A DNA stretch of 4,043 bases, from the IMG/VR virus record IMGVR_UViG_3300022758_000415; one strand, 5' to 3'. The notes below the pieces were generated by a model. The model was not told where the DNA came from, made no database searches, and saw only the letters and a program-made list of their open reading frames with translations. Source of the DNA: a virus. Taxonomy: Duplodnaviria; Heunggongvirae; Uroviricota; Caudoviricetes. A program made the position numbers and the translations under genes. This document shows, piece by piece, positions 1 through 4,043 of this stretch. The first letter of the stretch is position 1. Each line of letters opens with the position of its first letter.

Positions 1-149
1 CGACTTCCGTACCAGTCCGCAAAATCCCCTGAATATCAAGCCTTCCGTAGATTTACAGTTCGTCATGGTTCGCGTCAGATCGTTGACAGCCGCACTCCAT
101 GACGGGTAAAAAAGTGGATAAAATAATTTTACCCACCGGATTTTTACCC

Positions 150-1308
150 ATGCTCACCGTTAAGCAGATTGAAGCAGCAAAGCCGAAAGAAAAACCATAC
201 CGCCTTCTCGATGGTAATGGCCTGTACCTTTATGTCCCTGTGTCAGGGAAAAAGGTATGGCAGCTTCGCTACAAGATTGACGGTAAGGAGAAAATCCTGA
301 CCGTCGGAAAATATCCGCTTATGACTTTGCAGGAGGCAAGGGATAAAGCATGGACTGCGAGGAAAGACATCTCGGTTGGCATCGATCCGGTAAAGGCGAA
401 AAAGGCTTCGTCTAACAACAATTCCTTTAGTGCGATTTACAAGGAATGGTACGAGCACAAGAAGCAAGTCTGGTCAGTAGGCTATGCAACTGAACTTGCC
501 AAAATGTTTGATGACGACATTTTACCTATCATCGGCAGCCTTGAAATTCAGGATATTGAGCCGATGCAACTTCTGGAAGTAATCCGCAGATTTGAAGATC
601 GCGGTGCAATGGAGCGAGCCAACAAAGCACGCAGAAGATGCGGCGAGGTTTTCCGTTACGCTATTGTCACCGGAAGGGCTAAATATAACCCGGCACCTGA
701 CCTTGCTGACGCCATGAAGGGATACCGCAAGAAGAACTTCCCGTTTCTTCCTGCAGACCAGATCCCTGCATTCAACAAAGCACTGGCAACATTTTCAGGA
801 AGTATCGTATCGCTCATTGCGACCAAAGTTTTACGCTACACAGCCCTAAGAACGAAAGAGCTTCGTTCCATGCAATGGAAGAACGTCGATTTTGAAAACA
901 GGATTATCACTATCGACGCCAGTGTGATGAAGGGACGCAAGATTCATGTTGTCCCGATGTCGGACCAGGTGGTTGAACTTCTCACTACGCTAAGCTCAAT
1001 CACCAAACCAGTATCAGAGTTTGATTTTTGCCGGGCGCAACGATAAGAAGAAGCCAATCTGCGAGAACGCGGTACTGCTTGTGATCAAACAAATCGGCTA
1101 TGAAGGTCTGGAAAGCGGTCACGGATTCAGGCATGAATTCAGCACGATTATGAACGAGCACGAATGGCCTGCTGATGCTATTGAAGTACAACTGGCACAT
1201 GCCAACGGCGGATCTGTACGCGGAATTTACAACCATGCTCAGTATCTCGATAAGCGCAGAGAAATGATGCAGTGGTGGGCAGACTGGCTTGATGAAAAGG
1301 TGGAGTGA
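150..1308 (+). pseudogene. intS: P4-family tyrosine integrase (IntS-like), reading frame broken by a 1-nt indel around the T5 run at 1025-1029; would be intact if that run is really T4
   Basis: Seen: ORF 99-1046 translates to an N-terminal domain (MLTVKQIEAAKPKEKPYRLLDGNGLYLYV...WQLRYKIDGKE) resembling the P4 integrase N-terminus. ORF 1021-1308, in the +1 frame, carries the catalytic region (GHGFRHEF, LAH, VRGIYNHAQY, MMQWWADWLD). The span 150-1308 is 1159 nt, not a multiple of 3. Deleting one T at 1025-1029 gives a continuous ...PVSEFDFAGRNDKKKP... Start assigned to ATG 150 (MLTVKQ) rather than ATG 99 because homology begins there; no strong Shine-Dalgarno at either. The symbol intS is by analogy to the int-gtrA-gtrB arrangement I recall in E. 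coli K-12 CPS-53, not from a search. Confidence 0.85.
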
Positions 1309-1396
1309 ACCACCTTAACTATCGAATGACACAAATCCTTGCAATCCAGTGCAAAGCTTTGTGTACCAGAGTTTTTCTTCATCAACTACCGCAAGT

Positions 1397-1406
1397 ATCG
1401 ATCGAT
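1397..1406. repeat. Perfect 10-bp palindrome ATCGATCGAT containing the only Dam GATC site in the int-gtrA intergenic region; regulatory role unproven
   Basis: Seen: ATCGATCGAT at 1397-1406 is self-complementary and is immediately followed by TTGAGA (1406-1411), a -35-like hexamer about 50 nt upstream of the gtrA ATG. No convincing -10 at canonical spacing. Confidence 0.25.
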
Positions 1407-1457
1407 TGAGACTTGGATGATAGACTTCATGCCTTTCAGAACTCATTGATTAAATAA

Positions 1458-1820
1458 ATGTTAAAGCTATTTGCAAAGTACACCTCGATTGGTGTGCTGA
1501 ACACACTTATACACTGGGTGGTTTTTGGTGTATGTATCTATGCCGCGCATACCAATCAGGCTCTGGCAAACTTCGCAGGTTTCGTTGTGGCTGTGAGTTT
1601 TAGCTTCTTCGCGAATGCAAAATTCACATTCAAAGCATCGACTACAACGATGCGCTACATGTTATTTGTCGGGTTCATGGGAACACTGAGTGCAACTGTT
1701 GGATGGGCTGCTGATAGATGTTCACTTCCTCCAATTATCACTCTCGTCACCTTTTCCGCCATCAGCCTGGTGTGCGGTTTCGTCTATTCAAAGTTCATTG
1801 TCTTTAGGGATGCGAAATGA
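1458..1820 (+). CDS. gtrA: GtrA, small 4-helix membrane protein of the O-antigen glucosylation system (flippase for undecaprenyl-phosphate glucose)
   Basis: Seen: 120-aa hydrophobic protein ([25 protein letters not shown]...[10 protein letters not shown]) matching my recollection of the highly conserved GtrA/YfdG family. Stop TGA 1818-1820 overlaps the gtrB ATG 1817-1819 (ATGA). Sits directly upstream of a GT2 gtrB. Weak Shine-Dalgarno. Confidence 0.9.
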
Positions 1821-2716
1821 AGATATCTCTTGTAGTTCCTGTCTTCAATGAAGAAGAAGCGATACCAATTTTTTATAAAACGGTACGTGAATTCGAAGAG
1901 TTGAAGCCATATGAAGTGGAAATTGTTTTCATAAATGACGGAAGCAAAGACGCTACGGAGTCAATTATTAATGCTCTGGCTGTTTCTGATCCGCTAGTTG
2001 TTCCGCTGTCATTTACACGCAACTTTGGTAAAGAACCAGCATTGTTTGCAGGGTTAGACCATGCAACTGGCGATGCCGTGATTCCAATTGATGTTGACCT
2101 GCAAGACCCGATTGAGGTCATTCCTCATCTTATTGAAAAGTGGCAGGCAGGTGCTGATATGGTGCTGGCAAAGCGCTCTGACAGATCAACTGATGGTAGG
2201 TTAAAGCGTAAAACTGCTGAGTGGTTTTATAAACTTCACAACAAAATTAGTAATCCGCAGATTGAAGAGAACGTTGGTGACTTCCGTCTTATGTCACGAG
2301 AGATGGTAGAAAATATCAAACTACTGCCAGAGCGTAACCTGTTTATGAAAGGCGTTTTATCTTGGGTTGGCGGTAAGACGGATGTTGTTGAATACATCCG
2401 TGCTGAACGCGTTGCCGGAAGCACAAAGTTCAATGGCTGGAAGCTCTGGAACCTGGCGCTTGAGGGGATTACAAGTTTCTCGACCTTCCCCTTGCGCGTG
2501 TGGACTTACATCGGTCTACTTGTTGCGGGACTCTCGTTCCTTTACGGGGTGTGGATGATTTTCGACACATTGGTGTTCGGTAATGCTGTCCGTGGTTATC
2601 CATCGCTATTGGTTTCAATTCTTTTCCTGGGGGGAATTCAGTTGATAGGTATTGGTGTGCTTGGGGAATACATTGGCAGAATATATGTCGAAGTAAATCA
2701 AGACCAAGATATATAA
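1817..2716 (+). CDS. gtrB: GtrB, GT2-family bactoprenol glucosyltransferase; C-terminus as sequenced is probably frameshifted, authentic stop predicted at 2737-2739
   Basis: Seen: GT2 N-terminus [17 protein letters not shown], DxD-type motif IDVDLQDP, two C-terminal hydrophobic helices, and LGEYIGRIY as in ArnC/GtrB. RBS AGGGA about 6 nt upstream of the ATG. The annotated frame ends ...EVNQDQDI, while the +1 frame from about 2696 reads [14 protein letters not shown], containing the RPRY motif conserved at ArnC/GtrB C-termini. Confidence 0.9.
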
Positions 2717-2731
2717 TTAAGGGGTCTAAAG

Positions 2732-3138
2732 ATGTTTAAATTAACGCGATATGAAATGCCAGCGATACTTATAGTCGCTTGCTTCTTCCTTCCATTCTTT
2801 TATATGCCTCCTTTTGTGGATGATGTAGCAAGATATTCATACGGATATATCGGGCTAGCTTCTCAAGGTCGATTTCTTACCGAGTTGTATTACATCCTTT
2901 TGAATTCATCAGGAAGTTGATCTCGCCAGATGTTTATCAACTGAACCTTGTTGTTTCATTTGTTATCATGATAGTAGCCTGCAATTACTTTGCTGAATCT
3001 GTGTTTGGCAAGCAATGGATTGCAAAAACAATCACGATATGTGTTTTAATTTGTTCTCCATTTTATATTGAAAACATGTCATACCACATTGATGTTATTG
3101 GAATGTCGGCATCGTTTTCTTTGGCTATGCTGGAGTAG
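2732..3138 (+). pseudogene. N-terminal remnant (about 134 codons after correcting one frameshift) of a serotype-specific GT-C glucosyltransferase (gtr type gene); frameshifted and truncated
   Basis: Seen: occupies the third position of the gtr operon, with RBS AAGGGG upstream of ATG 2732. Hydrophobic N-terminus followed by PFVDDVARYSYG, which resembles the D[DE]xxRY first periplasmic loop motif of GT-C enzymes such as ArnT. ORFs 2732-2920 and 2917-3138 join if the T4 run at 2898-2901 is T5 (...ELYYILFEFIRKLISPDVYQ...). The frame ends at TAG 3136-3138, far short of the 400-500 aa expected for this family. Markedly AT-richer than its neighbours by eye. Confidence 0.55.
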
Positions 3139-3283
3139 CTGTTGCGGTATCGCAGTAATGACGAGTGTCAACAAACTTATCCATGCCATCGATATCAAGT
3201 ACGCAAAACCATGTGTGATTCGGCATTTCAACAGATGGTATTTGTTGCCCACGTCGACGTTTATCAATAAGACATACAGTCAT
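3125..3283 (-). CDS. Short 52-codon ORF translationally coupled to the upstream hypothetical gene; possibly the 5' remnant of a truncated gene
   Basis: Seen: ATG (complement of 3281-3283) overlaps the TGA stop of the 3826-3280 gene as ATGA. Translation is MTVCLIDKRRRGQQIPSVEMPNHTWFCVLDIDGMDKFVDTRHYCDTATATPA, ending at TAG (complement of 3125-3127). It was not in the supplied ORF track, presumably because it is short. It ends within about 14 nt of the end of the gtr-type remnant. Confidence 0.25.
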   Translation of the reverse strand: MTVCLIDKRRRGQQIPSVEMPNHTWFCVLDIDGMDKFVDTRHYCDTATATPA

Positions 3284-3826
3284 GGTTCCACCTTCTCTAT
3301 TTGCTTAAGACCGTCTCTCACTGCATTAAGTACGCGTTCCAGATACTGGTATTTCGGGTTTGGTACCGTTGGCCAGTCGGCATACCACGGATCATCACCA
3401 AAGAGATTCAGCAGTTTGTTACCGACGCCGAAACAACAGCAGCTTTCTTTTACGTCATCGGCGTTTTCCGCCTCGTCCCACATTTCGCGAGCCTGTACCG
3501 CGTCGATTTCTTTCTCTCTTCGTAACTTTATGATTTCTGACTTCACGAAAAGCAGATTTGCATCGTTGTCATCGTCGACCGTGCTTAGCAGTTGAGGGTC
3601 GAAAATTGTCGATTAGATAGTCGTTGCTAACTCGCTTAATGAACGTCTGCACATCATCACCGCCCATAGCAAACCAAGCCGCAGTCCACGCCTTTCCGTA
3701 GCAGGTGATGGTGATTCTTCCCTTACCAGGTTCGTAGTTTTCAATCATCACTCGAACCGGATCTAGTCGCTCTGCACCGGTTATAACGAATGACAACACA
3801 TCAATCTTTTCAACCGTTACACTCAC
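3280..3826 (-). CDS. Hypothetical acidic protein of about 180 aa, function unknown; interrupted as sequenced by a 1-nt indel at the A4 run 3602-3605
   Basis: Seen: GTG start at 3826-3824 preceded by a strong Shine-Dalgarno AAGGAGG (complement of 3834-3840) with a 7-nt spacer. ORFs 3826-3569 and 3546-3280 on the - strand join into one protein (...SNDYLIDNF/DPQLLSTVDDDNDANLLF...) if one base is removed from the homopolymer. Central acidic stretch, CCC triplet and a PWYADWPTVPNPKYQYL C-terminal region. I do not recognise the family. Confidence 0.6.
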
Positions 3827-3866
3827 TGGTTCGCCTCCTTTGCGAAGCTGGTCGGCGACTCGTTAA

Positions 3867-3894
3867 GTGATATGTAGCAATCTCCAAATGTTAA
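3867..3894 (-). promoter_or_regulatory. Candidate sigma70 promoter for the - strand hypothetical gene (-35 TTAACA, 16-nt spacer, -10 TATCAC)
   Basis: Seen: on the - strand, TTAACA (complement of 3889-3894) and TATCAC (complement of 3867-3872) separated by 16 nt, about 40 nt upstream of the GTG start. Hexamer match only, so weak. Confidence 0.2.
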
Positions 3895-4043
3895 CGAACC
3901 GCTCGACTGCATATGCTCCATAGGCCATCTCCACGCCCTGCGCCCGTACCTTCAGCCAAGAAAGCGTCGGTGGCTGTGGTTTCCGATATCGTTAATTTCA
4001 GGAAGAATCTCTTCCCATGTAGCGATATCGCCATTCAAATGCC

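What the first reader, a model, noticed from the sequence alone, without database searches (positions are those of the whole stretch)
3280..3826. Unrecognised acidic protein with strong translation signals, the least explained gene in the window
A roughly 180-aa protein with a strong RBS and a GTG start. It has a hydrophobic/aromatic N-terminal part (ITITCYGKAWTAAWFAMGG), a strongly acidic centre (STVDDDNDA...EMWDEAENADDVKE), a CCC triplet and a W/P/Y-rich C-terminal region. I cannot place it in a family. Acidic phage proteins near integrases are sometimes DNA-mimic or anti-restriction factors, but that is speculation here.
Basis: inference. Interest (0 to 1): 0.5.

Follow-up and report, generated by a model that had tools for sequence, protein, structure and literature searches.

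The report
Broken copy of phage gene phiTE_072
This is a frameshifted copy of a widespread phage accessory gene (Pfam Phage_phiTE_072) that is already catalogued but has no known function; nothing found here supports the idea that it is a DNA-mimic anti-restriction protein.

Summary
The gene is real and lies on the minus strand at 3826..3280. It has an AAGGAGG ribosome-binding site 7 nt before a GTG start. In this window one extra base in a homopolymer run (A4 at 3602-3605 on the + strand; intact relatives have A3) splits it into 85-aa and 88-aa ORFs. With that base removed it encodes 181 aa, 96% identical to intact E. coli prophage proteins. RefSeq calls these 'phiTE_072 family protein' (Pfam PF26211 Phage_phiTE_072, PHROG 3451, both of unknown function). 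The family is large, with 1259 representative clusters. It occurs in temperate phages, SSU5-like phage-plasmids and virulent phages, and is under purifying selection (dN/dS about 0.12). AlphaFold gives a confident single alpha/beta domain (pLDDT 96, pTM 0.86). An earlier, weaker model found no relative among solved structures. The protein is only moderately acidic (pI 4.5, net -12), much like its neighbours. The Cys triplet and the DDDNDAN motif are not conserved across the family. There is no conserved partner gene, no catalytic motif and no literature. My best guess, held weakly, is a stand-alone, non-enzymatic early accessory protein that binds a host or phage macromolecule. The window itself is a decayed prophage mosaic with many 1-nt indels.

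The parts
3834..3840 (-). Ribosome-binding site AAGGAGG, 7 nt upstream of the GTG start
   Evidence: Read directly from the sequence. The intact E. coli homologue is annotated with the same start.
3569..3826 (-). 5' ORF fragment of the phiTE_072-family gene. Codons 1 to about 75 are authentic (the beta-sheet domain and first helices), followed by an out-of-frame tail RPSTAKHGRR and a stop.
3602..3605 (-). Frameshift site: a homopolymer run one base longer (4 instead of 3) than in intact homologues
   Evidence: Pairwise DNA alignment to E. coli DFL.5 and the blastn indel list.
3280..3603 (-). 3' part of the gene in the second frame (FDPQLLSTVDDDNDAN ... KQIEKVEP, then stop). The listed ORF 3546..3280 is its portion downstream of the first in-frame start codon.
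3280..3283 (-). ATGA overlap: the stop codon of the phiTE_072-family gene overlaps the ATG of the downstream DUF7739 gene, which suggests translational coupling
   Evidence: Sequence. The same 4-nt overlap is annotated in the intact prophage.
3125..3283 (-). Downstream DUF7739 gene, truncated after about 48 authentic codons at the junction with the gtr remnant
   Evidence: Pfam PF24881 E = 3.5e-9, covering profile positions 1-52 of 98. phrog_1239 E = 5e-25.
3823..4043 (-). 3' part of the upstream eae-like (phrog_492) gene. Its stop overlaps the GTG start (GTGA). It is broken by three 1-nt indels and runs off the window.

Best explanation
Window 3826..3280 (minus strand) is a frameshifted copy of a Phage_phiTE_072-family gene (Pfam PF26211, PHROG 3451). 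The frameshift is either a true pseudogene or a homopolymer sequencing error. The gene lies in a remnant of a lambdoid prophage that a deletion fused to a CPS-53-like intS-gtrABX element. In intact phages the gene encodes a protein of about 180 aa with one compact alpha/beta domain: a four-stranded antiparallel sheet (residues 9-51) packed against six or seven helices. It is transcribed within the early accessory-gene arrays, either the ea region between recombination genes and int, or the region after the replication genes. It is often translationally coupled to interchangeable small neighbours. I infer, without demonstration, that it is a stand-alone, non-enzymatic accessory protein. It would act early in infection by binding a host or phage macromolecule, as host take-over or counter-defence, probably through the sequence-variable but consistently acidic helical surface at residues 113-146. 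Identity and family membership are shown (about 0.95). The binding-protein mechanism is inference (about 0.45).
For: Identity:
- 96% identity at E = 2e-114 to intact 181-aa proteins that carry PF26211.
- RefSeq names the syntenic gene 'phiTE_072 family protein'.
- 42% identity at E = 3e-33 to locus tag phiTE_072 itself.
- phrog_3451 matches at E = 1e-85.

Frameshift.

A functional gene in phages:
- 1259 representative clusters match at E <= 1e-3.
- Pairwise dN/dS averages 0.12.
- The gene is present in virulent Certrevirus phages (phiTE, CR3, CR8), Pseudomonas and Vibrio phages, SSU5-like phage-plasmids and lambdoid prophages.

Single folded domain: AlphaFold2 gives pLDDT 96.0 and pTM 0.86 with the diverse alignment.

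Probably non-enzymatic:
- The near-invariant positions are mostly aromatic or structural: D22, G36, W47, W51, F62, Y70, R102, A112, P152.
- No His or Cys is conserved, and the Cys and DDDNDAN motifs are lost in distant members.
- There are no Pfam, NCBIfam or PDB profile hits.

Stand-alone accessory gene:
- Neighbours vary between loci: phrog_492 in 41 of 83, DUF551 in 38, DUF7739 in 25, HD domain in 17.
- Distant members sit in arrays of small unannotated genes.

Acidic variable surface: segments 77-92, 113-128 and 129-146 are net negative in 82%, 89% and 95% of 87 diverse members.
Against: - No experiment, paper or annotation gives any function. The mechanism therefore rests only on genomic niche and the absence of catalytic signatures.
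- Several charged positions are well conserved and could form an active site: D22, E29, D86, R102, R103, R164.
- The fold searches used the first, weaker model (pLDDT 87.8, pTM 0.64). 'No structural relative' is therefore provisional.
- Timing of expression was not measured. It is inferred from gene position.
Confidence: 0.6

Rival explanations
1. DNA-mimic anti-restriction protein of the Ocr or ArdA type. An acidic surface would imitate the DNA backbone and titrate type I restriction enzymes or other DNA-binding defence proteins.
For: pI is 4.5 and net charge -12. The family median pI is about 4.9, and 95% of distant members are below pI 6. The central segments remain net negative despite sequence drift. 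The gene lies in early accessory regions, sometimes with orphan DNA methyltransferases about 2 kb away (19 loci).
Confidence: 0.08
2. A small enzyme acting on nucleotides or nucleic acids, using conserved acidic and basic residues as a metal or phosphate site.
For: D22 (99% acidic), E29 (97%), D86 (91%), R102 (91%) and R164 (91%) are conserved. In SSU5-like phage-plasmids the gene directly follows, and overlaps, an HD-domain phosphohydrolase gene. In lambdoid phages it follows replication genes and DUF1064.
Against: No known catalytic motif was found. No hit appeared against Pfam, NCBIfam, PDB sequences or PDB folds. Most near-invariant residues are aromatic core positions. The HD neighbour is limited to one phage lineage (17 of 83 loci).
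Confidence: 0.12
3. Accessory factor for phage replication or recombination, for example a modulator of the host replisome or of RecT/Exo-type recombination.
For: The gene lies immediately after the replication module (DnaT-like protein, replication protein P, DUF1064) in E. coli prophages and in phage EC.W1-9. In P22-like contigs it lies downstream of RecT and YqaJ. In Pseudomonas phage USP_18 it is near a sliding-clamp gene.
Against: The position varies between lineages and no partner is conserved. Lambdoid genomes place many unrelated accessory genes in the same two regions. No similarity to known replication or recombination proteins was found.
Confidence: 0.12
4. Prophage-encoded defence or superinfection-exclusion protein that benefits the lysogen.
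For: The gene is common in prophages and phage-plasmids of Enterobacteriaceae (577 of 5426 complete E. coli genomes). It sits in accessory regions that can carry defence cargo.
Against: It is present in strictly virulent phages such as phiTE, CR3, CR8 and CR9, and in phages of about 140 kb isolated on E. coli. PADLOC gives no hit. The gene lies in early lytic operons rather than being transcribed independently like a moron; no promoter or terminator signal flanks it.
Confidence: 0.06
5. The frameshift is a sequencing or assembly error, and the gene in the source organism is intact.
For: At least nine 1-nt indels relative to close homologues occur in 4 kb, at 108, 1024, 2694, 2913, 3602, 3832, 3936, 3949 and 3983. 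Most are changes in homopolymer length, which is the typical error pattern of some sequencing platforms.
Against: The locus also carries a large deletion that fuses two truncated genes at 3115-3133. It is therefore a decaying remnant in which real frameshifts are expected. The indel at 1024 is not a homopolymer extension.
Confidence: 0.35

Closest known systems
Pfam PF26211 Phage_phiTE_072 / PHROG 3451 / RefSeq 'phiTE_072 family protein' (type member: Pectobacterium phage phiTE gene 072, AEZ66238.1)
   Same: Full-length homology: 42% identity to phiTE_072 and 96% to E. coli prophage members. Same length, same single-domain architecture and same early accessory-gene niche.
   Different: The window copy carries a +1 frameshift. 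As written it encodes only 85-aa and 88-aa fragments. The family itself has no assigned function.
DNA-mimic anti-restriction proteins (T7 Ocr; ArdA of conjugative elements)
   Same: Small, acidic, early-expressed proteins of mobile elements. A net-negative surface is maintained despite sequence drift.
   Different: The charge density here is much lower. There is no sequence or fold similarity in the searches run. The predicted structure is a compact alpha/beta domain rather than an elongated DNA-shaped dimer, although the oligomeric state was not examined. No functional data exist.
Lambdoid and P22-like 'ea' and nin-region accessory genes (Ead/Ea22-like, DUF551, DUF7739, eae/phrog_492)
   Same: Same genomic neighbourhoods, often with overlapping start and stop codons. 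They shuffle as cassettes between phages, and their functions are likewise unknown.
   Different: No detectable sequence relationship. Unlike most of these, the phiTE_072 family extends well beyond lambdoid phages to large virulent myoviruses and to Pseudomonas, Vibrio and Pseudoalteromonas phages.

Membership tests
Phage_phiTE_072 (PF26211) / phrog_3451 | Significant full-length sequence match to the family profile or type member | tested here: met
   phrog_3451 E = 1.2e-85 over residues 2-180. tblastn to the phiTE_072 locus E = 3e-33, 42% identity, 97% coverage. Homologues at 96% identity carry precomputed PF26211. The local Pfam copy lacks this model, so a direct hmmscan returned nothing.
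Phage_phiTE_072 (PF26211) / phrog_3451 | Intact ORF of about 175-185 aa encoding the whole domain | tested here: not met
   One extra base at 3602-3605 splits the gene into 85-aa and 88-aa ORFs. The window copy is therefore a pseudogene or an error-containing read of a member.
Phage_phiTE_072 (PF26211) / phrog_3451 | Family-wide near-invariant residues (D22, G36, W47, W51, F62, Y70, R102, A112, P152) | tested here: met
   All are present in the frameshift-corrected window protein.
Ocr / ArdA-type DNA mimics | Sequence membership (Pfam Ocr, ArdA and ArdB/KlcA families) | tested here: not met
   Pfam scan at E <= 1 returned 0 families. A PDB sequence and profile search found nothing relevant.
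Ocr / ArdA-type DNA mimics | Fold resembling a solved DNA mimic | tested here: not met
Ocr / ArdA-type DNA mimics | Exceptionally high density of surface carboxylates | tested here: inconclusive
   Net -12 in 181 aa and pI 4.5, similar to neighbouring genes. However, the central segments are negative in 82-95% of family members. The surface charge pattern could not be computed because no coordinates were available.
Ocr / ArdA-type DNA mimics | Inhibition of type I restriction-modification enzymes | not testable with these tools
   This needs plating assays with the intact allele.
Known anti-phage defence proteins (PADLOC-DB) | Match to a defence-system protein model | tested here: not met
   No family at E <= 0.1 for the protein, for its phiTE orthologue, or for three neighbours.

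The most novel reading that the evidence does not exclude
The Phage_phiTE_072 family is an uncharacterised class of phage counter-defence or host-take-over protein with a fold that has no solved relative. Its sequence-variable but persistently acidic helical face (residues about 113-146) would be an evolving interface that sequesters a host immunity or nucleic-acid-binding protein.
Probability: 0.25. Interest if true: 0.55.

Novelty: already known. Interest (0 to 1): 0.2.

Why it matters
For this window it matters little. The gene is a broken copy of a catalogued family inside a decayed prophage, so it is unlikely to contribute to the host's biology. The family as a whole is a reasonable candidate for functional work for four reasons:
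- It is widespread across temperate and virulent phages of Gammaproteobacteria.
- It is under purifying selection.
- It is predicted with very high confidence to be a compact domain, and no solved homologue was found.
- It sits in the genome regions where anti-defence and host-take-over genes tend to accumulate.

Tried and rejected
1. Pfam, NCBIfam and PADLOC scans of the corrected protein gave no hits. PF26211 is newer than the local Pfam copy.
2. PDB sequence searches with the single protein and with an 87-sequence profile found nothing below E = 0.2.
4. I tested whether the family equals K-12 CPS-53 YfdS, YfdN or YfdT, prompted by the HD-domain neighbour in SSU5 resembling YfdR. The hhalign probabilities were below 1%, so this was rejected.
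5. Longer family members were checked for informative domain fusions. They are fused only to other PHROGs of unknown function (3205, 1229) and have no Pfam domains.
6. A neighbourhood census of 83 viral loci and 5 look-ups of distant homologues found no conserved partner.
7. Four literature searches on every identifier found no papers.
8. Two exact-match scans of species-representative genomes, for the frameshift allele and for the junction, found nothing, so the source organism was not identified.
9. The idea that the Cys triplet is a metal or Fe-S site was rejected. C129 and C130 are invariant only among close relatives and are lost in the wider family.

Full report
**Observation.**
The minus strand of window 3280-3826 carries two adjacent ORFs, 3826..3569 (85 aa, GTG start) and 3546..3280 (88 aa). 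An AAGGAGG ribosome-binding site (+ strand 3834-3840) lies 7 nt upstream of the GTG. Aligning the region to an intact E. coli prophage copy shows 98% nucleotide identity and one extra base in a homopolymer run. This is AATTTT against AATTT on the coding strand, or the A-run 3602-3605 on the + strand. Removing that base gives a 181-aa protein.

**What it is.**
- The corrected protein matches intact 181-aa proteins of E. coli, Salmonella, Klebsiella, Enterobacter and many other hosts at up to 96% identity (E = 2e-114). All of them carry the precomputed Pfam domain PF26211, whose name is Phage_phiTE_072.
- RefSeq annotates the syntenic gene in E. coli prophages as 'phiTE_072 family protein'.
- The protein is 42% identical over 97% of its length to locus tag phiTE_072 of Pectobacterium phage phiTE.
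- It matches PHROG 3451 (unknown function) at E = 1e-85.
- The local Pfam-A copy predates PF26211, so the direct scan returned nothing. NCBIfam and PADLOC also returned nothing.
- Every name given by any source is 'hypothetical' or 'uncharacterised'.
- Four full-text literature searches on all identifiers found no paper.

The gene is thus a member of a catalogued family of unknown function.

**Extent and selection.**
A profile search of 1.84 billion cluster representatives found 1259 members at E <= 1e-3 and 768 at E <= 1e-10. Among deposited phage genomes the family occurs in several groups:
- a lambdoid E. coli phage (EC.W1-9);
- SSU5-like phage-plasmids;
- virulent Certrevirus phages (phiTE, CR3, CR8, CR9);
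- phages of about 140 kb isolated on E. coli;
- Pseudomonas, Vibrio, Pseudoalteromonas and Yersinia phages.

In complete E. coli genomes, 577 of 5426 carry similar DNA, some of it on plasmids. Pairwise Nei-Gojobori dN/dS among close homologues averages 0.12. The intact gene is therefore maintained by purifying selection.

**Anatomy of the protein.**
With a diverse 87-sequence alignment, AlphaFold2 gives a very confident single domain (mean pLDDT 96.0, pTM 0.86). It has a four-stranded antiparallel sheet (residues 9-51), followed by helices at 59-65, 68-75, 87-103, 109-121, 125-130 and 137-140, and a long C-terminal helix at 157-179.

A first model from 30 close sequences (pLDDT 87.8, pTM 0.64) had the same secondary structure, and it was the one used for fold searches:
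- Foldseek against PDB: best E = 0.054 at TM about 0.2.
- BFVD: significant matches only to four unnamed viral proteins that align at 20-38% identity over about the full length and that I take to be family members (the best two at TM 0.73-0.78).

Even so, 'no solved structural relative' remains provisional, because the better model could not be searched.

Across the wide family the near-invariant positions are D22, G36, W47, W51, F62, Y70, R102, A112 and P152. No His or Cys is conserved and no known catalytic motif is present.

**Acidity.**
The protein has pI 4.48 and net charge -12. The family median pI is about 4.9. This charge density (-0.066 per residue) is much like that of neighbouring accessory genes of similar size. 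It is far below what I recall for Ocr or ArdA, a figure from memory that I did not compute here.

One point does favour a functional acidic surface. Segments 77-92, 113-128 and 129-146 are net negative in 82%, 89% and 95% of 87 diverse members, although the sequence in 113-146 is poorly conserved. These segments are predicted to be ordered helices, not a disordered acidic tail.

**Genomic context.**
In the intact E. coli DFL.5 prophage and in phage EC.W1-9 the gene order is as follows:
- replication genes (DnaT-like protein, replication protein P);
- DUF1064;
- an eae-like gene (phrog_492);
- the phiTE_072-family gene;
- DUF7739;
- Ead/Ea22-like genes;
- terminase.

In the DFL.5 prophage, where the coordinates were checked, the start and stop codons on both sides of the phiTE_072-family gene overlap by 4 nt.

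A census of 83 viral contigs shows variable neighbours:
- phrog_492 directly adjacent in 41 loci;
- DUF551 in 38;
- DUF7739 in 25;
- an HD-domain gene directly upstream in 17 (SSU5-like elements);
- a DUF4942 DNA methyltransferase about 2 kb away in 19;
- RecT and YqaJ upstream and an integrase about 2 kb downstream in P22-like arrangements.

Distant members lie in long arrays of small unannotated genes. No partner is conserved, and fused versions carry only other unknown PHROG domains. The gene therefore behaves as a stand-alone cassette in early accessory regions.

**State of the window.**
The window is a mosaic of two parts.
- Positions 6-3133 match the argW-linked CPS-53-like element (intS, gtrA/yfdG, gtrB/yfdH and a serotype-specific glucosyltransferase) at 95% identity.
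- Positions 3115-4043 match the lambdoid cassette on the opposite strand at 97% identity.

The two truncated genes, the glucosyltransferase and DUF7739, meet at 3115-3133. No complete E. coli genome and no species-representative genome spans this junction.

Relative to close homologues the window has 1-nt indels at 108, 1024 (which breaks intS), 2694 (which alters the gtrB C-terminus), 2913 (which breaks the glucosyltransferase), 3602 (the target gene), 3832, 3936, 3949 and 3983 (the last three break the eae-like gene). Most are changes in homopolymer length. This fits either a decaying cryptic prophage or error-prone sequencing, and I cannot tell which.

**Mechanism.**
Shown:
- family membership;
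- the frameshift;
- purifying selection;
- a confident single-domain fold;
- a variable genomic neighbourhood;
- presence in virulent phages.

Inferred:
- The family occurs in virulent as well as temperate phages and lies in early operons without its own promoter or terminator signals.
- It has no catalytic signature, and it keeps a charge-conserved but sequence-variable surface.
- For these reasons I think it most likely acts during infection as a non-enzymatic binder of a host or phage macromolecule, in host take-over or counter-defence (about 0.45).

Rivals are a small enzyme (0.12), a replication or recombination accessory factor (0.12), a DNA mimic in the strict sense (0.08) and a lysogen-protecting defence gene (0.06). 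The remainder is unassigned.

**Comparison and verdict.**
The closest known entity is the family itself (PF26211, PHROG 3451). The window copy meets the sequence and residue criteria but not the intact-ORF criterion. It does not meet the sequence or fold criteria for Ocr or ArdA-type mimics, and the charge criterion is inconclusive. The finding is a real gene, correctly spotted, but it is an already catalogued 'known unknown' and is broken in this window. Interest is low for the window (0.2) and moderate for the family if an anti-defence role were demonstrated.

Noticed in passing
window 99-1308 (indel at 1024): The intS-type integrase is split into 315-aa and 95-aa ORFs. The cause is a 1-nt insertion (GATTTTT against GTTTTT) relative to E. 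coli NCTC11121 intS.
   Followed up: partly
window 2690-2716 (indel at 2694): A 1-nt deletion in an A-run near the 3' end of gtrB/yfdH changes the reading frame of the last codons. The ORF is 299 aa and ends differently from its E. coli homologue.
   Followed up: no
window 2732-3138 (indel at 2913): The serotype-specific glucosyltransferase (gtr type gene, 473 aa in NCTC11121) is frameshifted at 2913. It is then cut off at about 3133, leaving only roughly the first 135 codons.
   Followed up: partly
window 3115-3133: This is the junction between the CPS-53-like gtr element and a lambdoid prophage remnant on the opposite strand. The two homologies overlap by about 19 nt. No complete E. coli genome and no GTDB species-representative genome contains this junction, so it looks like a lineage-specific deletion.
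   Followed up: partly
window 3125-3283 (minus strand): Truncated DUF7739 (PF24881, phrog_1239) gene. Its ATG overlaps the stop codon of the phiTE_072-family gene. Only profile positions 1-52 of 98 remain.
   Followed up: yes
window 3823-4043 (minus strand): The C-terminal part of an eae-like (phrog_492) gene is broken by three 1-nt indels (3936, 3949, 3983). Its stop overlaps the GTG start of the target gene.
   Followed up: partly
whole window: Nine or more single-base indels relative to 95-97% identical homologues, mostly changes in homopolymer length. This suggests either heavy pseudogenisation of a cryptic prophage or an error-prone assembly, and it affects how far any ORF call in this window can be trusted.
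   Followed up: partly
L002 4363-5552 (Salmonella phage SSU5) and 16 similar viral contigs: In SSU5-like phage-plasmids the phiTE_072-family gene directly follows an HD-domain phosphohydrolase gene (PF13328) and overlaps it by 4 nt. This lineage-specific pairing might hint at a nucleotide-related role.
   Followed up: partly
proteins P0206, P0212 (313-319 aa) and P0184 (286 aa): Some family members are fused at the C-terminus to other phage domains of unknown function (phrog_3205, phrog_1229). I did not check whether these are true fusions or read-through gene calls.
   Followed up: no
window 1309-1457: The intergenic region between intS and gtrA is markedly more divergent from E. coli relatives than the flanking genes, with a cluster of small indels.
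   Followed up: no
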